Origin: Halanaerobiales bacterium
Lineage (GTDB): Bacteria; Bacillota; Halanaerobiia; Halanaerobiales; M55B127
Reading direction: 5' to 3'
Assembly: GCA_018334565.1 (NCBI GenBank)
Contig: JAGXLU010000003.1
Coordinates: 19,475 to 83,474, forward strand
DNA: 64,000 nucleotides
Below the pieces are notes generated by a model, which did not search any database, was not told the DNA's origin, and saw only the letters and a program-made list of their open reading frames with translations. Shown here piece by piece: positions 162-59,700 of the stretch; within the stretch, counting starts at the first letter, position 1; each line of letters starts with the position of its first letter. Both the position numbers and the translations under genes were made by a program.

Positions 162-767
162 GTGTTCAAACTGGCAGTATTAGCCTCTGGTAGGGGCAGT
201 AATTTACAATCTATTATAGACAAATTACATAAAAAAGAACAAGATATTTCAATTGAAGTGGTTATCAGTAATAATAAGAGCAGGGCCTTAAAGAGAGCTT
301 TAAAAAACAATATTGAATCTTATCATATAGATGATAACAACTATAATAAGGAAGAATATGAAAGAAAAATAATAGATATTATTGAAGAAAGACAAATAAA
401 CTTAATTATTTTAGCTGGTTATATGAAGGTATTATCGGCAAATTTCATCGATCATTTTAGAGATAAGATAATAAACATTCACCCTTCTTTACTGCCTGCT
501 TTTCCCGGTTTAGATGCACAAAAGCAGGCTGTAAAATATGGTGTAAAAATAAGTGGATGTACGGTGCATTTTGTCAATGAAAAAATTGATGCGGGTTCTA
601 TTATTATGCAGGCAGCAGTAGAAGTAAAATACAATGATAATGAACAAAGTCTGGCAGAAAGAATCTTGCACAAAGAGCATAATATTTTACCAGAGGTTAT
701 TAAGTTAATTGCTGACGATAAGGTATTTATTACTAACAATAGGAAGGTAAAGATAAAGGAGGAATAA
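162..767 (+). CDS. purN: phosphoribosylglycinamide formyltransferase
   Basis: GTG start. N-terminus KLAVLASGRGSNLQSII and the NIHPSLLP motif are typical of PurN. pur operon context. Confidence 0.9.
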   Translation: MFKLAVLASGRGSNLQSIIDKLHKKEQDISIEVVISNNKSRALKRALKNNIESYHIDDNNYNKEEYERKIIDIIEERQINLIILAGYMKVLSANFIDHFRDKIINIHPSLLPAFPGLDAQKQAVKYGVKISGCTVHFVNEKIDAGSIIMQAAVEVKYNDNEQSLAERILHKEHNILPEVIKLIADDKVFITNNRKVKIKEE

Positions 768-768
768 T

Positions 769-2334
769 ATGGGCAAGATTAAAAGAGCACTGCTCAGTGT
801 ATATGATAAAACAGATATTATCGAATTAGCTGAAACCCTTGCTGACAGTGATATAGAAATTATATCTACAGGGGGGACTGCTCAAAAAATTCAAGAAGCC
901 GGAATTGATGTAACTCATATTTCTGAAGTAACTAATTTTCCAGAAATGATGGAAGGACGGGTTAAGACTCTTAATCCCAAAATACATGGGGGCATCTTGG
1001 CCCGACGTAATGTAAATTCTGATATGGAAGAGTTGGAGAATTTAAATATCTTACCGATAGATTTAGTAGTCTGTAATCTTTATCCCTTTGCTCAAACTAT
1101 AGATCAAAAAGATATAGAAATGGATACGGCCTTAAAAAATATAGATATTGGGGGGCCAACTATGATAAGAGCTGCAGCGAAAAATTATCCTGATGTTCTA
1201 ATAATAGTGGATCCCAGTGATTATAGTATAATAAAAGAAAAAATTAATAAACAGACAGACCTAGAATACGAATTCAAAAAGAAAATGGCCTATAAAGCTT
1301 TTAATCATACTGCTGAATATGATGCTATCATTCAAAATTATTTCTTTGATCAACTAGATAAAAAAGAAGAATTTCCTGAGATACTAATCAATCCTTATTA
1401 CAAGAAAAATAAGTTGAGATATGGTGAAAACCCTCATCAAAAGGCGGCTTTTTATCAAGAAAGAAAGATAGATGAAAATGGAATTACTAATGCTGTTCAG
1501 CTGGAAGGCAAAGAGCTTTCTTTTAATAATATAAATGATGCTAATGGTGCTATAGAGTTGATCAAGGAATTTAATGATAGACCAACAGTGGCAGTCATTA
1601 AACACACCAATCCTTGTGGACTTGCCTCAGCAGATAATATAGTCACAGCTTTTAAAAAAGCCCATGCGGGAGATCCGCTTTCAGCTTTTGGCAGTGTAGT
1701 GGCTGTAAATAGAGAAGTAGATCAAAAACTAGCGGAGGAAATAATCAGTGGCGATAAGTTTATTGAGGTCATTGTTGCTCCTGATTACAGCAAAGAATCT
1801 CTTCATTTACTACATAAAAGATGGGAGTCCTTAAGAATATTAAAAATCGGAGAACTGAAGTTCAATTATAAAAACAGTGGTTATGATTTCAAAAAGGTAA
1901 CAAAAGGACTCTTGGTTCAAAATAGAGATCTTAAGATAATTTTTAGAGAAAATATTAAACTACAGAATAAGAACTTTGGTGAGAATAATATATATAAGGA
2001 TTTAATATTTGCCTGGAAGGCAGTTAAACATGTTAAGTCAAATGCAATTGTAATAGCCAAAGATGAGATGTTATTAGGAGTAGGGGCTGGTCAAATGAGT
2101 AGAGTTGATGCCATGATTATTGCAGGAAGAAAAGCAGATTGTCGGCAAAGAGGAGCTGTGGTTGCATCTGATGCATTTTTTCCTTTTCCTGATGCTGTCA
2201 AAAAGGCAGGTGAACTTAATATTAAAGCTATTATTCAGCCGGGAGGTTCTATCAGGGATGAACAGGTGATAGATAAATCAGACGAACTGGGTATAGCAAT
2301 GTATTTTACCAGGATAAGACATTTTTGCCATTAA
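769..2334 (+). CDS. purH: bifunctional AICAR transformylase / IMP cyclohydrolase
   Basis: 521 aa. RALLSVYDKT..STGGTA (MGS-like IMP cyclohydrolase domain) and C-terminal ..ASDAFFPF..IIQPGGSIRD motifs. Confidence 0.95.
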   Translation: MGKIKRALLSVYDKTDIIELAETLADSDIEIISTGGTAQKIQEAGIDVTHISEVTNFPEMMEGRVKTLNPKIHGGILARRNVNSDMEELENLNILPIDLVVCNLYPFAQTIDQKDIEMDTALKNIDIGGPTMIRAAAKNYPDVLIIVDPSDYSIIKEKINKQTDLEYEFKKKMAYKAFNHTAEYDAIIQNYFFDQLDKKEEFPEILINPYYKKNKLRYGENPHQKAAFYQERKIDENGITNAVQLEGKELSFNNINDANGAIELIKEFNDRPTVAVIKHTNPCGLASADNIVTAFKKAHAGDPLSAFGSVVAVNREVDQKLAEEIISGDKFIEVIVAPDYSKESLHLLHKRWESLRILKIGELKFNYKNSGYDFKKVTKGLLVQNRDLKIIFRENIKLQNKNFGENNIYKDLIFAWKAVKHVKSNAIVIAKDEMLLGVGAGQMSRVDAMIIAGRKADCRQRGAVVASDAFFPFPDAVKKAGELNIKAIIQPGGSIRDEQVIDKSDELGIAMYFTRIRHFCH

Positions 2335-2397
2335 GGCAGGAGATATATTTTATCCAGAGAATATAAGTAAATATAATTAACAGGTAGGGGGGATAAT

Positions 2398-3639
2398 ATA
2401 AAAACAAAAAAAGTTGCAATTATAGGAGCAGGTAACAGAGGTAAAGATGTTTATGCCAAATTAATTAAAGAAAATAAAAACTTAGAAGTTAATGCTGTAG
2501 CAGAGCCACAAAAGCTAAGACGTATAAAATTTGCGCAAGAAAATAATATTCCTCCCAATCTGCAATTTAAAAGCTGGGAGGATTTATTAATTGAAGGTCG
2601 ACTGGCAGATGGCATAATTCTTGCTACAGGTGATAAATTACACTTTAAACCACTGACTAAATTTTTAAAAAAAGGTTATAAAATATTGTGCGAAAAACCT
2701 ATTACAGATCAATACCATGAGTTAAAACAATTAGAAAAAAAATATGATAAGTATAATAATAAAGTGATAGTAGCACATGTATTAAGATATACTCCTTTTT
2801 TTAATAAAATAAAAGAGATAATAAAAAGCAAAATCATAGGAAGAGTTAGATTCATTAATCTAATTGAAAACATTGGCTATTTTCATTATGCACATAGTTA
2901 TGTGCGGGGTAATTGGAGAAATAAAAAAGTGGCTGCACCAATAATATTAGCAAAAAGCTGTCACGATCTTGATATTCTATATTGGCTATTAGATAGTCGA
3001 TATAAAAGGATATATTCTGAAATATCTGAGAGGTATTTTAAGCATGAGTATCAGCCCTCTCAAACTGCTCAACGTTGTATTGATTGTGTTATTGAAGATA
3101 ACTGTCCGTATTCAGCTAAAAAGATATACCTTAATAAAGGTTATCAATGGCCGATTTCTACTATAACTGAAGAATTAAGTCAGGCCGGAATCAAAAAGGC
3201 ATTAGCAAATAGCAGTTATGGTAAATGTGTATATAGAGCTGATAATGAGCAGCCAGATGTATATTCTGCACTTTTAAAGTTCAATAATGAGATTACTGCC
3301 CATTTTACCCTGACAGCTTTTAGTAAAGAGATGACAAGAAAAATAAATATTTTTGCTTCACATGGTGAAATAAGTGGTGATTTGGAAGCTGGTCAAATAG
3401 TACTGAAGCCTTTTTTAGGTAAAAATAAAAAAATTAAAATAAACAATAATGGTTCTCATGCCGGTGGAGATCGAAAATTGATCAATTCATTTGCTGCATT
3501 ATTATCACATGATGATTTTAATAATAAGAGTAATTTGTTATCATCTCTAGAAAGTCATTATGTTGCTTTGGCTCTTGAAAAAGCAAGGCATGATAAAAAT
3601 CCAATTGAACTAAATTTATTTAGGAGGCGAAACATTTGA
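2398..3639 (+). CDS. Gfo/Idh/MocA family NAD(P)-dependent oxidoreductase; 5' end uncertain, apparent ATA start
   Basis: The frame is open from the in-frame TAA at 2374-2376. Positions 2401-2700 translate to KTKKVAIIGAGNRGKDVY...KGYKILCEKP, a Rossmann GxGxxG plus the hallmark EKP motif. This lies upstream of the first canonical start (TTG 2686) used by the ORF track. SD GGGGGG at 2387-2392 sits 5 nt before ATA 2398. Confidence 0.65.
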   Translation: MKTKKVAIIGAGNRGKDVYAKLIKENKNLEVNAVAEPQKLRRIKFAQENNIPPNLQFKSWEDLLIEGRLADGIILATGDKLHFKPLTKFLKKGYKILCEKPITDQYHELKQLEKKYDKYNNKVIVAHVLRYTPFFNKIKEIIKSKIIGRVRFINLIENIGYFHYAHSYVRGNWRNKKVAAPIILAKSCHDLDILYWLLDSRYKRIYSEISERYFKHEYQPSQTAQRCIDCVIEDNCPYSAKKIYLNKGYQWPISTITEELSQAGIKKALANSSYGKCVYRADNEQPDVYSALLKFNNEITAHFTLTAFSKEMTRKINIFASHGEISGDLEAGQIVLKPFLGKNKKIKINNNGSHAGGDRKLINSFAALLSHDDFNNKSNLLSSLESHYVALALEKARHDKNPIELNLFRRRNI

Positions 3640-4343
3640 AAAGGATCGGACTTATTGGGGCCAAGGGTTGGTGCTCGCCCTCTTTATACTATAATAAAAT
3701 CAACCGATATTTTAATCAGATAAGAGGTAATAAGATAAATCCCGAGACTATTATTTATACAGTTAACTATCAAGAAATAATTAAATTTCAAAAAGAAGGG
3801 GACTGGAATGCCTTAGCCGATTTTTTAATCCCAAAAGCCATTAAAATAGAAGAGGCAGGTGCTGATTTTTTAGTCATCACTTCCAATACAGTTCATAAAA
3901 TTATTGATAAAATACAGGCAAAGATTAATATACCGATAATAAATATAATAGATGTTGTGGGGAAAAAGGCCAAATACAGCTGGTGTAAAAAACCCGGTTT
4001 GTTGGCTAATAAATATTTAATCAAAGATGGTTTTTATCAAAAAAAGCTTGAAGAAAAATATGTAGAAAGAATAATATTACCTGCTGAAAGTGAAATTGAG
4101 GAGCTAAATTATATTATTATTGATGAACTTGCCAATAAAAGCAATACTCATTTTAGTTCGCGCCTTTATATTAATAATATAATAAACAACCTTGTTAATA
4201 GTGGAGTAGATTCCATTATACTGGCCTCGATAGAACTAACTTCTTTAATAGATATTATCGCTGATAGTGATGTGAAAATATTAAATAGTCTTGAATTACA
4301 TGTACAGGAGATAGTTCATTATACCCTAAAAAAGAGTTTGTAA
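3636..4343 (+). CDS. aspartate/glutamate racemase family protein (atypical: both catalytic Cys positions are Ser)
   Basis: TTG start overlapping the upstream stop. KRIGLIGAKGW..SLYY, ..VITSNTVH.. and ..IILASIELT.. align with the GGMGxxST..YY, xxCNTAH and GCTE(L) motifs of PF01177-type racemases. Confidence 0.65.
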   Translation: MKRIGLIGAKGWCSPSLYYNKINRYFNQIRGNKINPETIIYTVNYQEIIKFQKEGDWNALADFLIPKAIKIEEAGADFLVITSNTVHKIIDKIQAKINIPIINIIDVVGKKAKYSWCKKPGLLANKYLIKDGFYQKKLEEKYVERIILPAESEIEELNYIIIDELANKSNTHFSSRLYINNIINNLVNSGVDSIILASIELTSLIDIIADSDVKILNSLELHVQEIVHYTLKKSL

Positions 4344-55239: not shown

Positions 55240-58200
55240 ATGGGTTTAAAATATGTCAAAAAACGTGATGGTACAACTGTTAAATTTAATACAGATAAGA
55301 TAAAAAACGCTGTTTTAAAAGCAGCTTCAGCTGTAGATTTAGATGATGAAAATATCGGAGAGATAATAACACAGGAAGTAATATCTTATTTAAAAATATT
55401 TTTTGGAGAAAAAGGAATTCCTGAAGTTGAACAAATTCAAGATTTGGTAGAAAAAGTATTAATTGAAAAAGGCTATGCCGAGGTTGCTAAAGCGTATATT
55501 TTATATAGAGAACAACATAAAAAAATAAGAGATACAAAGAAATTATTTAATGACGCAATTGATGCCATGAATGATTATTTAGATTTAGAAGATTGGAAAG
55601 TTAAAGAAAATAGTAATATGGGATATTCTCTACAGGGTTTAAATAATTTTATATCATCAGAAGTAACCTCTCAATACTGGTTACAGGAGGTTTATCCTCC
55701 AGAAGCAGGTGAAAGACATCTTGATGGTGATTTTCACATTCATGATCTTGGTAATCTGAGTGTTTATTGCTGTGGGTGGGATCTTGAAGATTTCTTAAAA
55801 ACAGGTTTTAGGGGTGTATCCACAAAAATTGAAAGCAAACCTCCAAAACACTTAAAAACTGCTTTAGGACAAATGGTCAACTTCTTTTTTACTCTACAAG
55901 GAGAAGCAGCCGGCGCTATGGCTTTTTCAAACTTTGATACTTTGTTAGCCCCCTATATAGCTTATGATGACTTAGAATATAAAGAGGTTAAACAAGCCAT
56001 GCAGGAATTTTTATTTAATATGAATGTTCCTACAAGGGTAGGCTTTCAAACTCCCTTTACTAATATAACTATGGACTTAACAGTGCCTAATCATTATAAA
56101 GATAGTCCTGTTTTTATAGGTGGGGAAATGAAGGATAGAACTTATGATGAGTTTCAAAAAGAGATGGATTTAATAAATAAGGCCTTTGCTGAAGTAATGA
56201 TGTCCGGAGATTCAAAAGGAAGAGTATTTTCATTTCCAATACCAACCTATAATATTACTCCCGATTTTGATTGGAACAAGCCTTTATTAAATCCAGTTTG
56301 GGAAATGACAGCAAAATATGGAATTCCTTATTTCTGTCTGGATGAAGATACTGAACTAATAACCGATAAGGGAATTAAACAAATAAAAAATTTAAGAATA
56401 AATGAAGATAAAGTTTTAGGAGAAAATGGAAAATTTTATTCAGTTAATAACTATATAAAAAATACACATTCTGAATATATAGAAATTACTACAGAAAATG
56501 AGAAAATAATAAGATGTTCTAAAAATCATAGGTTTCCTACTCAAAATGGTATAAAAAAAGCTGTTAATTTATCTATAAATGATCAATTAAAAGAATATAA
56601 TAAAAAAATAATTTTTAAAAATGGATTTGAATTGTCTTATAAAAATCAGTCTTACTTTAATTTATTTAATCAAAAGGGAAAAGAAATAAATATTAAAGAT
56701 GTAGATAAAAACAGTAAAGACCAATTTTACTGTTTACAACCTAATCCAAAAGATAAAATAGATAAAGATAAACAATCCTTATCAGAATTTGAGAAAGACC
56801 ATGGAGGCCATAGAAATAATAATTCTTTTAAAGATAAAAAAAGTAAAGATTGTATATATTTATTTATCAAAAAAATAATAGAAAATAATAATTATGTTTC
56901 TATAAGTAGTTTAAAAAGAGTAGAAAAAGAAATTAATACGGTTGATATTACTGTTGATAATAAAAGCCATTTATTTTTATTAGCAAATGAAATATTAACT
57001 CACAACTCTAATTTTGTTAACTCAGATATGGATCCAGAAGATGCAAGAAGTATGTGCTTATATCCTGATGAGACAATCCTTATAAGATATCAAAATGAGA
57101 TAAAAAAATATACAATTGGAAAATTATTTGATCAGTTTAAAGGTGAGAATATTGATGATGAATGGTATCAAACAAATAAAAAGGTAGAAGTGATTTCATT
57201 AAATCCGGATACGGGTAAATTAGAATGGGCTGATGTAAATAAGTTTTTAAAAGTTACTGGTGATAAACTTATCACAATTACTACAAAAGACGGGAAGACT
57301 ATGAAAATATCAAAAGATCATTTAGTAGCTGTTTATGAAAAAAATGGGATAACTACTAAAAAAGCAATGGATATAGATGAAAAAGATCTTTTATTAGTTA
57401 TGAGAAGTGACAGTGAAATTTTAAATAAAGATTCAGATAAAGAAGATACCAGGGTTATTAAAACACAACATGACTTCAAAACAGGTAATATGCAAAAGCA
57501 GGTAATTAAAGATAAACTCTATAATATGTCCCCTCAATTTTTAGTGGAGGAGGATTCTTTAAATGAAAAAGGTAATAAACCAAATCAAGTAAATGAATAT
57601 AAAACAATTGGCTTATCTACTATAGATAAGTTGGAATTATCAAATCACAAGGTTGATTTTTTAAATAGACCTGATTATGATGTGGTTAAATTAGATGAAA
57701 TAAATGTAGAAAGTTTAAATCATGAGCAAGAATTTTATGATATTGAGCTTAAAGAAAACCATTACTTTGTACACTCAGATAATAATATCAGCCACAATTG
57801 CTGCAGGTTAAGGCTAGATAATAGGGAGTTGAGAAAAAGAGGGGGAGGTTTATTTGGTGCAAATCCCATGACAGGCTCAATTGGGGTTGTTACTTTAAAT
57901 ATGCCCCGCATTGGGTACATATCAAAAAACAAAAATGATTATTTAGAGCGCGTTTTTCAATTAATGGATTTAGCTAAAGAAAGTTTGGAAATAAAAAGAA
58001 CTATTTTAGAAAGCTTAACAGAGCAAGGTCTTTACCCCTACTCAAGATTTTATCTAAGAAATATAAAAAAGAGATTTGATGAGTACTGGAAAAATCACTT
58101 TAATACAATTGGAATTAATGGGATGAATGAATCTCTTATCAATTTTATGGGGAAAAATCTCAGTGATAAGGCGGCCAAAGATTTTGCTGTTGAAGTTATG

Positions 58201-58683
58201 GAGTCTATGAAAACAAGAATGAAAAATTATCAAGAAGAAACCGGTAATTTATATAATCTGGAAGCTACTCCAGCCGAATCAACTTCATATAGATTGGCAA
58301 GATTAGATAAAGAAAAATATGGAGTTAATATTAAGGCGGCTAATGAAAAGAGAATTGCTGAAAATGGTGCAGAACCATATTATACCAATTCAACCCATTT
58401 ACCTGTAGGCTACACCGAAGATATTTTTGATGCACTAGAAATTCAGGATGAACTGCAAACCGAATACACAGGCGGGACAGTTTTCCATGGTTTTTTAGGA
58501 GAGAGGTTGAACGGAATAGAGAGCACTAAAAAACTTGTTAAAAGAATTTCCAGCAAATTTAAACTACCTTATTATACTATAACCCCAACCTTTAGTATAT
58601 GTCCTATACATGGCTATTTACCAGGCGAACATCGCTATTGTCCCAAATGTGAAGCAGAAGAGAGGGCGAGAGAAGTTGAATAA
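55240..58683 (+). CDS. nrdD: anaerobic ribonucleoside-triphosphate reductase large polypeptide: ATP-cone plus barrel plus zinc ribbon, with two inteins and no glycyl-radical motif
   Basis: N-terminal ATP-cone (VKKRDGT.V.F...KI..A). NrdD motifs GDFHIHDL, ..FSFPIPTYN.., ..YF|SNFVNSDM.PEDARSM|CCRLRLD, ..GGG.FG.....GS.GVVT.N.PR.. The ORF ends ..CPIHGYLPGEHRYCPKCEAEERAREVE*. Confidence 0.9.
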   Translation: MGLKYVKKRDGTTVKFNTDKIKNAVLKAASAVDLDDENIGEIITQEVISYLKIFFGEKGIPEVEQIQDLVEKVLIEKGYAEVAKAYILYREQHKKIRDTKKLFNDAIDAMNDYLDLEDWKVKENSNMGYSLQGLNNFISSEVTSQYWLQEVYPPEAGERHLDGDFHIHDLGNLSVYCCGWDLEDFLKTGFRGVSTKIESKPPKHLKTALGQMVNFFFTLQGEAAGAMAFSNFDTLLAPYIAYDDLEYKEVKQAMQEFLFNMNVPTRVGFQTPFTNITMDLTVPNHYKDSPVFIGGEMKDRTYDEFQKEMDLINKAFAEVMMSGDSKGRVFSFPIPTYNITPDFDWNKPLLNPVWEMTAKYGIPYFCLDEDTELITDKGIKQIKNLRINEDKVLGENGKFYSVNNYIKNTHSEYIEITTENEKIIRCSKNHRFPTQNGIKKAVNLSINDQLKEYNKKIIFKNGFELSYKNQSYFNLFNQKGKEINIKDVDKNSKDQFYCLQPNPKDKIDKDKQSLSEFEKDHGGHRNNNSFKDKKSKDCIYLFIKKIIENNNYVSISSLKRVEKEINTVDITVDNKSHLFLLANEILTHNSNFVNSDMDPEDARSMCLYPDETILIRYQNEIKKYTIGKLFDQFKGENIDDEWYQTNKKVEVISLNPDTGKLEWADVNKFLKVTGDKLITITTKDGKTMKISKDHLVAVYEKNGITTKKAMDIDEKDLLLVMRSDSEILNKDSDKEDTRVIKTQHDFKTGNMQKQVIKDKLYNMSPQFLVEEDSLNEKGNKPNQVNEYKTIGLSTIDKLELSNHKVDFLNRPDYDVVKLDEINVESLNHEQEFYDIELKENHYFVHSDNNISHNCCRLRLDNRELRKRGGGLFGANPMTGSIGVVTLNMPRIGYISKNKNDYLERVFQLMDLAKESLEIKRTILESLTEQGLYPYSRFYLRNIKKRFDEYWKNHFNTIGINGMNESLINFMGKNLSDKAAKDFAVEVMESMKTRMKNYQEETGNLYNLEATPAESTSYRLARLDKEKYGVNIKAANEKRIAENGAEPYYTNSTHLPVGYTEDIFDALEIQDELQTEYTGGTVFHGFLGERLNGIESTKKLVKRISSKFKLPYYTITPTFSICPIHGYLPGEHRYCPKCEAEERAREVE
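56335..57006 (+). mobile_element. intein 1 in NrdD (224 aa, mini-intein type)
   Basis: Begins CLDEDTELIT (block A). Contains RCSKNHRF (block B TxxH-like). Ends VDITVDNKSHLFLLANEILTHN, followed by a +1 Ser. Removal restores the contiguous NrdD motif ..IPYF-SNFVNSD.. Confidence 0.85.
57055..57798 (+). mobile_element. intein 2 in NrdD (248 aa, mini-intein type)
   Basis: Begins CLYPDETILI. Contains KISKDHLV (block B). Ends EFYDIELKENHYFVHSDNNISHN, followed by a +1 Cys. Removal restores ..ARSM-CCRLRLD.. Confidence 0.85.
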
Positions 58684-59389
58684 TAAAATAAAAATATCCG
58701 GTATTCAAAAGACCTCTTTGATTGATTATCCTGATTACATTTCTACTGTTCTTTTTACACAGGGGTGCAATATGAACTGTCCTTACTGTCATAACCCTGA
58801 ATTGATTGCAAAAGAAAACAACAATGAATATTTAAAACTACCATATTTTTGGGAATATTTAGAGAAACGAGCTGATCTCATTGATGGGGTTGTAATCACT
58901 GGAGGAGAGCCATTAATACACTCCTCATTATATGATTTTATAAAGAATATAAAAGAACATGATTTATTGGTGAAATTAGATACGAACGGGACTAATTATG
59001 AACTTTTAAAAAGAATTATTGGTGATGATTTGATTGATTATGTTGCAATGGATATTAAAGGACCAATAGAGGATTATGGGAACTTTTGTGGAATAAAGTT
59101 AAATAATGTAACTAAAGAAAGCATAAAAAAAAGCAGGGATTTGATATTAAATACAAATATTGATTATGAGCTGCGCACCACAATTGTTCCAGATATGCAT
59201 ACAAAAGATGTTTTAAGAAAAATAGCAGATCAAATAATGGGTTGCACAAATTACTATCTTCAGAACTTTCGCTCAGGTAAAGTAAATGATCCTGAGTATA
59301 CAGAAAAAAGAAGTTTTTCAGAAAGTGAGATTAAAACATTCATCAAAATATTTGAGGATTATAATATAGAAGCAAAGATTAGGGCTTAG
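58676..59389 (+). CDS. nrdG: anaerobic ribonucleoside-triphosphate reductase activating protein (radical SAM)
   Basis: ..ISGIQKTSLIDYPD....VLFTQGCNMNCPYCHNPEL.. The TTG 58676 start overlaps the nrdD stop. The track's longer ORF from 58610 lies inside nrdD. Confidence 0.85.
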   Translation: MNNKIKISGIQKTSLIDYPDYISTVLFTQGCNMNCPYCHNPELIAKENNNEYLKLPYFWEYLEKRADLIDGVVITGGEPLIHSSLYDFIKNIKEHDLLVKLDTNGTNYELLKRIIGDDLIDYVAMDIKGPIEDYGNFCGIKLNNVTKESIKKSRDLILNTNIDYELRTTIVPDMHTKDVLRKIADQIMGCTNYYLQNFRSGKVNDPEYTEKRSFSESEIKTFIKIFEDYNIEAKIRA

Positions 59390-59559
59390 AAAATAAGATA
59401 TGATATCCAGACAGAAGGACTATATAATTTAGTAAATATGATACTAAATACTTGTTTGATTTTTATTTTAAATGTTTCAAGAAAACTTCATCTAAATCTT
59501 GTTTTTGATTTAGGTGGATAGGTTCACAGAAGTTTATTATTACATGAGGAGGAAATAAA

Positions 59560-59700
59560 ATGGCAAAAAAACAGAAATGTGAAATTTATTCAAGAGTAGT
59601 TGGTTATCTTTCTCCCGTTTCAGAATGGAATGATGGAAAACAGGAAGAATTTAAAGACAGAAAAACATACAGCATTAACGATAAAATTAAGAGTAAATAA
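59560..59700 (+). CDS. free-standing NrdD glycyl-radical domain peptide (46 aa)
   Basis: SD GAGGAGG (59546-59552) with a 7-nt spacer to the ATG. Translation is MAKKQKCEIYSRVVGYLSPVSEWNDGKQEEFKDRKTYSINDKIKSK. It carries the RV.GYL....WN.GK.EE...R signature that forms the C-terminus of canonical NrdD. Confidence 0.75.
   Translation: MAKKQKCEIYSRVVGYLSPVSEWNDGKQEEFKDRKTYSINDKIKSK

What the first reader, a model, noticed from the sequence alone, without database searches (positions are those of the whole stretch)
56335..57798. Two mini-inteins only 16 residues apart in the NrdD catalytic core
Seen in the sequence:
- Two insertions (224 and 248 aa) each start with Cys (CLDEDTELIT, CLYPDETILI).
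- Each contains a block-B-like SK(N/D)H and ends in (T/S)HN.
- They are followed by +1 Ser and +1 Cys respectively.
- Deleting them recreates the contiguous NrdD sequence ..GIPYF-SNFVNSDMDPEDARSM-CCRLRLDNRE..
- Only 48 nt of extein (57007-57054) separate them.
- Neither shows a LAGLIDADG or HNH motif. Their centres are K/N/D-rich low-complexity linkers, which look like decayed endonuclease regions.

Established knowledge: inteins cluster in conserved active-site regions of replication and nucleotide-metabolism enzymes, including RNRs.

Inference:
- The second intein sits directly before the conserved CC of CCRLxLD, and its +1 nucleophile is one of those cysteines.
- NrdD activity here would therefore require two splicing events, plus possibly assembly with a trans radical peptide.
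Basis: partly seen in the sequence, partly recalled or inferred. Interest (0 to 1): 0.6.

Follow-up and report, generated by a model that had tools for sequence, protein, structure and literature searches.

The report
Two degenerate mini-inteins in NrdD
The anaerobic ribonucleotide reductase gene of this Halanaerobiales bacterium really carries two self-splicing protein inserts 16 residues apart, next to its catalytic cysteine, but both are ordinary endonuclease-less relics of mobile inteins that occupy the same two sites in related species.

Summary
ORF 55240-58683 is a 1147-aa NrdD. Removing aa 366-589 (intein 1) and 606-853 (intein 2) gives a 675-aa protein colinear with intein-free orthologues (85-86% identity).

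Both inserts have Cys1, an S-K-(N/D)-H block B, a terminal His-Asn and a +1 Ser or Cys. Both match intein models and model as HINT folds.

Neither is new in kind. NrdD of the Halanaerobiales is an intein hot spot with at least five insertion sites, and roughly half of the 62 species with NrdD carry an intein.
- Intein 1 is the 450-aa LAGLIDADG intein of site 365|366 with one clean 226-aa in-frame deletion.
- Intein 2 is the roughly 402-aa LAGLIDADG intein of site 381|382 with both endonuclease motifs deleted.
- The two are not duplicates of each other.

Occupation of both sites recurs in a congeneric species and in one distant protein. Intein 2 splits the MCCR finger-loop motif, and its +1 Cys directly precedes the radical cysteine.

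The genome's only other RNR, NrdJ, also carries an intein at its radical cysteine, so splicing is presumably efficient, though that is inferred. This is a new member of a known kind, of modest interest.

The parts
55240..58683 (+). nrdD precursor ORF, 1147 aa: ATP-cone plus class III RNR barrel plus zinc ribbon. It stops after CPKC and has no glycyl-radical motif in cis.
   Evidence: PF13597 4.9e-177, PF03477 4.3e-22, NF006126 987 bits.
55240..56334 (+). N-extein (aa 1-365), ending ...AKYGIPYF.
   Evidence: Colinear with intein-free orthologues.
56335..57006 (+). Intein 1 (224 aa), a mini-intein at NrdD site 365|366 ('site a'). Cys1 at 56335-56337; block B S-K-N-H at 56518-56529; blocks F/G VDITVDNKSHLFLLANEILTHN at 56941-57006.
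   Evidence: - Models: TIGR01443 at aa 569-590, 19.3 bits against a cut-off of 15.6. PF14890 only 19.6 bits, below its cut-off.
- Solved structures: gp41-1 intein E 1.7e-6; profile of site-a inteins against gp41-1, E 6.5e-10.
- Predicted structure: pLDDT 71.8, and the listed Foldseek hits at E<=0.001 are inteins or related HINT domains, TM up to 0.83.
56736..56737 (+). Deletion junction in intein 1 (Leu134|Gln135). Full-length relatives carry 226 aa of double-LAGLIDADG endonuclease here.
   Evidence: MAFFT alignment with eight site-a inteins of 435-450 aa. The flanks are 65-68% (N part) and 60-62% (C part) identical to P0002 and G008.
57007..57054 (+). 16-residue extein piece SNFVNSDMDPEDARSM. 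This is the sequence just upstream of the finger-loop motif, and its last residue is the Met of MCCR. +1 Ser of intein 1 at 57007-57009.
   Evidence: Identical or nearly identical in all orthologues. Motif position from the T. maritima alignment and from PMC4493059 and PMC9669993.
57055..57798 (+). Intein 2 (248 aa), a mini-intein at NrdD site 381|382 ('site b'). Cys1 at 57055-57057; block B S-K-D-H at 57310-57321; blocks F/G FYDIELKENHYFVHSDNNISHN at 57733-57798.
   Evidence: - Models: PF14890 50.2 bits against a cut-off of 35.8; TIGR01445 49.7 bits against 24.5.
- Solved structures: Pab PolC intein 2lcj, E 2.4e-10.
- Predicted structure: HINT part pLDDT about 66-89 per 10-residue block; Foldseek TM 0.74-0.84 to mini-inteins.
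57442..57669 (+). Remnant of the endonuclease-region tail inside intein 2 (about 75 aa). The deletion junction lies at about 57441|57442. Predicted disordered.
   Evidence: Aligns with residues about 282-360 of the 402-405-aa LAGLIDADG inteins at the same site; the whole C-terminal 120 aa is 43-47% identical. pLDDT below 50 for precursor aa 730-805.
57799..58683 (+). C-extein. The +1 Cys of intein 2 (57799-57801) is the first Cys of MCCR. The second Cys (57802-57804) is the inferred thiyl-radical cysteine.
   Evidence: C855 is invariant and C854 at least 90% conserved in 61 NrdDs. T4 288-MGCR-291 aligns with T. maritima 328-SCCR-331 (PMC4493059).
58676..59389 (+). nrdG activase (context; start codon uncertain, TTG 58676 or ATG 58610).
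   Evidence: TIGR02495 NrdG2, 9.7e-60.
59560..59700 (+). 46-aa ORF carrying the glycyl-radical motif SRVVGY (context; it is the subject of a separate finding).
   Evidence: Matches the last 33 positions of PF13597 (3.2e-11) and of TIGR02487. Conserved downstream in every Halanaerobiales locus with enough flank.

Best explanation
Two unrelated class-1 inteins invaded nrdD independently at two recurrent homing sites 48 nt apart. Site a lies between F365 and S366. Site b lies between M381 and C382, inside the MCCR finger-loop motif. Each later lost its LAGLIDADG homing endonuclease by in-frame deletion. Both are now immobile mini-inteins that persist because imprecise loss would destroy an essential catalytic region.

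The 1147-aa precursor is translated as one chain. Each HINT domain then folds and removes itself by the standard pathway: an N-S acyl shift at Cys1, trans-thioesterification to the +1 Ser (intein 1) or +1 Cys (intein 2), Asn cyclisation, and an acyl shift to a peptide bond. The product is a 675-aa NrdD with the intact sequence ...GIPYF-SNFVNSDMDPEDARSM-CCRL.... This protein would then work with NrdG and the separately encoded 46-aa glycyl-radical peptide.

Shown here: identity as inteins, exact boundaries, origin by endonuclease deletion, independent origin of the two, and recurrence of both sites. Inferred: that both splice efficiently, and that they have no host function.
For: - **Boundaries.** Exact colinearity of the spliced extein with intein-free orthologues.
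- **Splicing residues.** All canonical residues are present: C1, S-x-x-H, H-N, and +1 S or C. They are invariant across site-a inteins.
- **Model and structure matches.**
- **Intein 1.** It is the 450-aa LAGLIDADG intein minus 226 aa.
- **Intein 2.** It is the 402-aa LAGLIDADG intein minus about 155 aa. Other minis at site b (175-233 aa) have different deletion end-points, so the endonuclease was lost repeatedly.
- **Independent origin.** Intein 1 and intein 2 share only weak local similarity: 24% identity in a gapped alignment, 35% over 57 aa.
- **Recurrence of the sites.** In the species genomes held for the order, site b is occupied in at least 17 and site a in 5. Both are occupied in G000 and G008, and also in the distant protein P0042.
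- **Age of the deletion.** Sister species G010 (C-extein 96% identical) has the same mini form of intein 2: 78% identity, no gaps, catalytic residues kept.
- **Intact frame.** Ten population variants all keep an open 1147-aa frame.
- **Dependence on splicing.** The only other RNR found in this 97%-complete genome is NrdJ, and it also carries an intein at NP|CGE.
Against:
- Intein 1 scores below Pfam's cut-off for PF14890 (19.6 against 35.8 bits).
- Intein 1 was modelled confidently in only one of five AF2 models, from a 6-sequence alignment. In the full-length model it was below pLDDT 50.
- Intein 2 evolves about five times faster than the extein and holds 5 of the 7 polymorphic residues. This fits relaxed constraint but does not exclude slow or partial splicing.
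Confidence: 0.88

Rival explanations
1. Conditional splicing. Intein 2 has Cys1 and Cys+1, followed by the radical Cys. It could act as a redox gate. Under oxidising conditions a Cys1-Cys+1 disulfide would block splicing, so the oxygen-sensitive NrdD would mature only when the cell is reduced or anoxic. The intein would then be retained for host benefit.
For: - The closest solved sequence relative of intein 2 is the Pab PolII/PolC intein (2lcj, E 2.4e-10). Its in-vitro splicing requires reduction of a Cys1-Cys+1 disulfide (PMC8175363).
- Cys1 is present in all 16 aligned site-b inteins, and the +1 Cys is at least 90% conserved in NrdD.
- Site b is the most frequently occupied site in the order.
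- The host enzyme is oxygen-sensitive.
Against: - The +1 Cys is conserved in intein-free NrdDs for catalytic reasons, so its presence needs no intein-related explanation.
- Many congeners and orthologues lack the intein altogether (G005, G006 and about 25 species).
- Intein 2 shows relaxed rather than strengthened constraint.
- Halanaerobiales are, from general knowledge, strict anaerobes with a reducing cytoplasm.
- Nothing was tested experimentally.
Confidence: 0.08
2. One or both mini-inteins no longer splice. nrdD is then a dying gene, and the B12-dependent NrdJ supplies dNTPs.
For: - Intein 1 is the only deletion form of the site-a intein found.
- Its deletion junction region is disordered in the model.
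- Its Pfam score is weak.
- A second RNR exists in the genome.
Against: - There is no stop or frameshift in 3.4 kb across ten variants.
- The extein has only 2 polymorphic residues in 675 and is 96% identical to the sister species' C-extein. That indicates strong purifying selection on NrdD.
- All splicing residues are intact.
- nrdG and the glycyl-radical mini-ORF are intact downstream.
Confidence: 0.04
3. The two inteins arose by tandem duplication of one intein.
For: They lie 48 nt apart, and both are Cys1 inteins ending in His-Asn with an SKxH block B.
Against: - They share only weak local similarity with each other: 24% identity in a gapped alignment and 35% over 57 aa.
- Each is 55-68% identical to inteins at its own site in other species.
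- Each site is occupied alone in many species.
Confidence: 0.01

Closest known systems
Full-length LAGLIDADG inteins at the same NrdD site a: Halobacteroides halobius DSM 5150 NrdD (P0029, 1532 aa), metagenomic P0002-P0004, and G008 of the same genus
   Same: Same insertion point (PYF|SNF). The N- and C-terminal splicing parts are 51-68% and 39-62% identical, and the same C1, SKNH and HN|S residues are present.
   Different: Those are 450 aa with two LAGLIDADG motifs. The window's copy lacks exactly 226 aa and is the only mini form found.
Site-b NrdD inteins, for example in Neomoorella thermoacetica NrdD (P0033, 404 aa; P0049, 199 aa) and many Halanaerobiales MAGs
   Same: Same insertion point (M|CCR). 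The N part is 55-60% identical, with the same block F/G ...NHYFVHS-GNI(T/S)HN|C.
   Different: The deletion end-points are different, and about 75 aa of the endonuclease tail are retained, giving 248 aa. Only sister species G010 shares this form.
gp41-1 intein (PDB 6qaz, 6riz)
   Same: Best solved relative of intein 1 by sequence and fold. It has a nearly identical C-terminal motif (HLFY-ANDILTHN against HLFLLANEILTHN). It also has a +1 Ser, from my own knowledge.
   Different: gp41-1 is a 128-aa split intein from a cyanophage-like helicase. Intein 1 is contiguous, has 224 aa and carries extra non-HINT segments inherited from an endonuclease-bearing ancestor.
Pyrococcus abyssi PolII (PolC) mini-intein (PDB 2lcj)
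   Same: Best solved relative of intein 2 (E 2.4e-10; Foldseek TM 0.74). It has the same Cys1 and Cys+1 pair, which forms a splicing-blocking disulfide in vitro (PMC8175363).
   Different: It has a different host protein and comes from an archaeal hyperthermophile. It ends in Gln rather than Asn, and it has no endonuclease remnant.
[quoted passage not shown]
   Same: Several recurrent intein sites are packed into one catalytic region, double occupancy is common in a lineage, and single-site alleles exist alongside.
   Different: Those inteins retain active endonucleases and home. Here both are immobile. The host is NrdD, and the two occupied sites are only 16 residues apart.
Class II RNR (NrdJ) intein at NP|CGE, present in this same genome (contig C89)
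   Same: It is inserted in the finger loop directly at the radical cysteine of an RNR barrel, a position analogous to site b.
   Different: It is a full-length 414-aa LAGLIDADG intein, unrelated in sequence to inteins 1 and 2 beyond the fold.

Membership tests
Intein (HINT superfamily, class 1) | In-frame insertion in a conserved host protein that is absent, with exact junctions, from close orthologues | tested here: met
   The spliced extein aligns q1-672 with 674-676-aa orthologues at 85-86% identity. The linker and flanks are identical in G005 and G006.
Intein (HINT superfamily, class 1) | Cys or Ser at position 1, and a block B (T/S)xxH | tested here: met
   Intein 1 has C1 and S62-K-N-H65. 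Intein 2 has C1 and S86-K-D-H89. S62, N64 and H65 are invariant in site-a inteins.
Intein (HINT superfamily, class 1) | C-terminal His-Asn followed by a +1 Cys, Ser or Thr | tested here: met
   THN|S and SHN|C.
Intein (HINT superfamily, class 1) | Match to curated intein/Hint models above the cut-off | tested here: met
   - Intein 2: PF14890 50.2 bits against 35.8; TIGR01445 49.7 against 24.5.
- Intein 1: only TIGR01443 passes (19.3 against 15.6). PF14890 at 19.6 bits is below its cut-off. It is rescued by a profile hit to the gp41-1 intein, E 6.5e-10.

Intein (HINT superfamily, class 1) | HINT horseshoe fold | tested here: met
   These are predicted models only.
- Intein 2 region: Foldseek TM 0.74-0.84 to mini-inteins.
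- Intein 1 model: pLDDT 71.8, the listed hits at E<=0.001 are inteins or related HINT domains, TM up to 0.83. Only one of the five models was confident.
Intein (HINT superfamily, class 1) | Autocatalytic protein splicing | not testable with these tools
   Needs expression and a western blot or mass spectrometry.
Homing-endonuclease (LAGLIDADG) intein, i.e. a mobile intein | Nested LAGLIDADG or HNH endonuclease domain | tested here: not met
   No PF14528, PF14527 or PF05204 hit in either insert. Alignments show that both LAGLIDADG motifs are deleted. These are mini-inteins and are not autonomously mobile.
Class III ribonucleotide reductase NrdD (host protein) | NrdD barrel with a finger-loop M(G/C)CR motif and a C-terminal zinc ribbon | tested here: met
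   PF13597 4.9e-177 and NF006126 987 bits. MCCR is recreated by splicing. The CPIHG...CPKC ribbon is present.
Class III ribonucleotide reductase NrdD (host protein) | Glycyl-radical motif RVxGY at the C-terminus of the same chain | tested here: not met
   The ORF ends after CPKC. The motif is on a separate 46-aa ORF at 59560-59700, and this holds order-wide. The enzyme is a two-chain variant, which is the subject of another finding.

The most novel reading that the evidence does not exclude
Intein 2 sits inside the MCCR finger-loop motif with Cys1, Cys+1 and the radical Cys adjacent. It could act as an oxygen or redox gate for an oxygen-sensitive enzyme. A Cys1-Cys+1 disulfide, as shown for its closest solved relative the Pab PolII intein, would hold NrdD as an inert precursor until the cell is reduced. 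With intein 1 only 16 residues upstream, maturation could also be ordered, one splice being needed before the other can fold. Together with the trans glycyl-radical peptide, that would make a three-step, condition-dependent assembly of an RNR.
Probability: 0.08. Interest if true: 0.6.

Novelty: new member of a known kind. Interest (0 to 1): 0.3.

Why it matters
Mainly as a clean natural example.
- It gives snapshots of the late stage of the homing cycle: the same two NrdD sites carry full-length, variously truncated and absent inteins within one bacterial order.
- It includes a natural one-step 226-aa deletion that turns a 450-aa LAGLIDADG intein into a mini-intein related to the gp41-1 intein. 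That could be useful to protein engineers looking for compact, mutually orthogonal inteins that work 16 residues apart.
- It shows that an organism can depend entirely on protein splicing for dNTP synthesis, because both of its RNRs are interrupted at their radical-cysteine loops.
- It shows that class III RNR is an intein hot spot, which surveys of RNR inteins have not broken out by class.

None of this changes how inteins are understood.

Tried and rejected
- **Duplication origin.** Rejected. Inteins 1 and 2 share only weak local similarity, while each is 55-68% identical to inteins at its own site.
- **Assembly chimera.** Rejected. Ten variants lie on at least 19 contigs from four sources.
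- **Lineage-specific insertion domains rather than inteins.** Rejected by model, structure and orthologue evidence.
- **Full-length AF2 model.** It gave no usable model of intein 1 (pLDDT 23-52). A separate job on the 6-sequence site-a alignment gave one confident model out of five.
- **Named NrdD intein alleles in the literature.** The NrdD-plus-intein search found only phage cases and 'Chy RIR1' mentions. I found no published map of NrdD intein sites and no statement of the closest co-occupied intein pair. I make no claim that 16 residues is a record.
- **Word-indexed search with intein 1 alone.** It found only 6 proteins, all NrdD. Its sensitivity is limited, so 'the only mini form' means 'the only one found'.
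- **Intein versus extein phylogenetic congruence.** Not attempted.
Full report
**What is there**

ORF 55240-58683 (+) encodes a 1147-aa protein with an ATP-cone and the class III ribonucleotide reductase (NrdD) domain: PF13597 4.9e-177 and NF006126 987 bits. The NrdD match is broken into pieces. The breaks coincide with two inserts:
- Intein 1: aa 366-589, window 56335-57006, 224 aa.
- Intein 2: aa 606-853, window 57055-57798, 248 aa.
- Between them: 16 residues, SNFVNSDMDPEDARSM, window 57007-57054.

Removing both inserts gives a 675-aa protein. It aligns without gaps over positions 1-672 with intein-free orthologues of 674-676 aa at 85-86% identity (P0022-P0025, and genomes G005 and G006 of the same genus).

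Names attached to database hits place the organism in the Halanaerobiales.

**They are inteins**

Both inserts have the canonical splicing residues:
- They begin with Cys.
- They have a block B (S-K-N-H at 56518-56529; S-K-D-H at 57310-57321).
- They end in His-Asn.
- They are followed by Ser (intein 1) or Cys (intein 2).

Evidence for intein 2:
- It passes Pfam Intein_splicing (50.2 bits against a cut-off of 35.8) and TIGR01445 (49.7 against 24.5).
- It hits the Pyrococcus abyssi PolC intein 2lcj at 2.4e-10.
- In a full-length AlphaFold model its HINT part has block-mean pLDDT of about 66-89. Foldseek superposes it on mini-inteins at TM 0.74-0.84.

Evidence for intein 1 is weaker against generic models:
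- PF14890 gives only 19.6 bits. TIGR01443 at its C-terminus passes (19.3 against 15.6).
- It hits the gp41-1 intein (6qaz, 1.7e-6).
- A profile of six site-a inteins hits gp41-1 at 6.5e-10 in both the N- and C-terminal blocks.
- A separate model has pLDDT 71.8, but only one of the five models was confident. The listed Foldseek hits at E<=0.001 are inteins or related HINT domains, with TM up to 0.83.

**Where they came from**

Intein 1:
- Eight relatives carry an intein at exactly the same point (PYF|SNF). All are 435-450 aa with two LAGLIDADG motifs (PF14528).
- The alignment shows the window's intein 1 is this same intein with one clean in-frame deletion of 226 aa between Leu134 and Gln135 (window 56736|56737). 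The deletion removes the whole endonuclease.
- The flanks are 65-68% (N part) and 60-62% (C part) identical to the copies in P0002-P0004 and in the congener G008.
- The K/N/D-rich segments next to the junction are conserved parts of the full-length intein, not decayed endonuclease.

Intein 2:
- I retrieved 37 inteins at its site (M|CCR), ranging from 175 to 405 aa. The forms of about 402-405 aa carry LAGLIDADG motifs (LAWFMGLFIADGNY and FIEGFFDGDGY).
- Intein 2 keeps the N-terminal 128 aa (55-60% identity). It also keeps the C-terminal 120 aa (43-47% identity), which includes about 75 aa of the endonuclease-region tail. That tail is modelled as disordered.
- Other minis at this site have different deletion end-points, so the endonuclease was lost repeatedly.
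- Sister species G010 has a C-extein 96% identical to ours. It has the same deletion form at 78% identity with no gaps over the 175 aa present on its contig. The deletion therefore predates that speciation, and the intein diverges about five times faster than the extein.

The two compared with each other:
- They share only weak local similarity: 24% identity in a gapped alignment and 35% over 57 aa. They are independent invaders, not duplicates.
- GC3 is 0.098 for intein 1 and 0.198 for intein 2, against 0.21-0.28 for the exteins.

**How common this is**

Of the 72 species genomes held for the order, 62 have NrdD, and roughly half of those carry at least one intein. I count at least five insertion sites, in extein coordinates: about 223, about 270, 365 (site a), 381 (site b) and about 612.
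- Site b is occupied in at least 17 species, including most of the window's genus.
- Site a is occupied in five species.
- Both sites are occupied in the window's genome, in congener G008 (450 + 214 aa) and in a distant 1950-aa protein, P0042 (435 + 405 aa).

The double-intein protein of the window is not an assembly artefact. Ten full-length variants occur on at least 19 contigs from four data sources. Among them the polymorphic residues number 2 of 675 in the extein, 0 of 224 in intein 1 and 5 of 248 in intein 2.

**Position in the enzyme**

The finger loop of class III RNRs carries the motif MGCR or MCCR. T4 288-MGCR-291 aligns with T. maritima 328-SCCR-331, and the Cys before Arg is the thiyl-radical cysteine (PMC4493059; PMC9669993).
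- The HMMER alignment of the spliced extein to T. maritima NrdD puts our CC on residues 329 and 330.
- Intein 2 therefore splits the motif as M|CCR. Its +1 nucleophile is the first Cys (at least 90% conserved). The next residue is the invariant radical Cys, C855 of the precursor.
- The 16-residue piece between the inteins is the sequence immediately upstream of that motif.

The genome's only other RNR is a class II NrdJ on contig C89. It carries a 414-aa LAGLIDADG intein at NP|CGE, directly at its own radical cysteine. Every RNR found in this 97%-complete assembly therefore needs protein splicing. This argues that splicing works.

**Mechanism**

The most likely account is two independent, standard class-1 splicing reactions on one precursor, giving a 675-aa NrdD. 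That protein would work with NrdG (58676-59389) and the separately encoded 46-aa glycyl-radical peptide (59560-59700). The small ORF matches the last 33 positions of the NrdD models. It is conserved downstream in every Halanaerobiales locus that had enough flank. It is the subject of another finding of this scan.

Efficient splicing is inferred, not shown. The inference rests on:
- intact catalytic residues;
- an open frame in all variants;
- strong constraint on the extein;
- the absence of an intein-free RNR.

The sites are 48 nt apart. From general knowledge of LAGLIDADG enzymes (not tested here), target sites of about 20-40 bp centred on each insertion point need not overlap. This fits the many single-site alleles. 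Work on neighbouring MCM inteins shows that double inteins mostly invade single-intein alleles (PMC10643990).

**Less likely readings**

- **Redox gate.** This has a precedent: the Pab PolII intein needs reduction of a Cys1-Cys+1 disulfide to splice (PMC8175363). But the +1 Cys is explained by catalysis, many relatives lack the intein, and intein 2 looks relaxed rather than constrained. I give it about 0.08.
- **Dead gene.** I give this about 0.04.

**Verdict**

The observation and the interpretation are right. The feature is a new member of a well-known kind, in a lineage where it is commonplace. Three points stand out:
- two co-occupied sites only 16 residues apart, lying just upstream of and within the finger-loop motif;
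- the one-step natural conversion of a 450-aa LAGLIDADG intein into a mini-intein;
- complete dependence of dNTP synthesis on splicing.

Noticed in passing
window 58600-59700 (nrdD stop at 58681-58683; nrdG; mini-ORF 59560-59700): NrdD ends right after its zinc ribbon (CPKCEAEERAREVE*). The glycyl-radical motif (CEIYSRVVGYLSPVSEWNDGKQEEFKDR) is on a separate 46-aa ORF downstream of nrdG. Among the 120 best database hits, the chains named as or resembling Halanaerobiales also end there, while homologues from other lineages (e.g. Neomoorella thermoacetica, Caldanaerobius fijiensis) have the motif fused. The mini-ORF is conserved in every Halanaerobiales locus with enough flank. This is already a separate finding of the scan.
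   Followed up: partly
own genome G000 contig C89:32994-35633 (locus L001, ORF 529-4017): The class II RNR NrdJ (1162 aa) carries a full-length 414-aa LAGLIDADG intein (aa 275-688) inserted at NP|CGE, so its +1 Cys is the class II radical cysteine. All three inteins detected in this genome are in RNRs, and no intein-free RNR was found.
   Followed up: partly
genomes G002, G011, G016, G009, G010 (loci L029-L035): In several MAGs of the genus and order the nrdD contig breaks exactly at or inside the site-b intein. G002 has both an intein-free N-terminal fragment running through sites a and b and a separate contig starting at C382. This suggests strain-level presence/absence polymorphism of the intein that fragments assemblies.
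   Followed up: no
order-wide NrdD: Further NrdD intein sites lie at about extein residues 223-226, 270 and 612 (+1 Thr of TVFHGF). Proteins with up to three or more inteins exist, for example P0029 (1532 aa) and P0042 (1950 aa). I found no published map of class III RNR intein sites.
   Followed up: partly
window 57055-57798, variants P0001 and P0121-P0130: The five polymorphic residues of intein 2 (positions 619, 645, 700, 756 and 817 of the precursor) occur in many combinations among only ten variants. This suggests recombination within the population.
   Followed up: no
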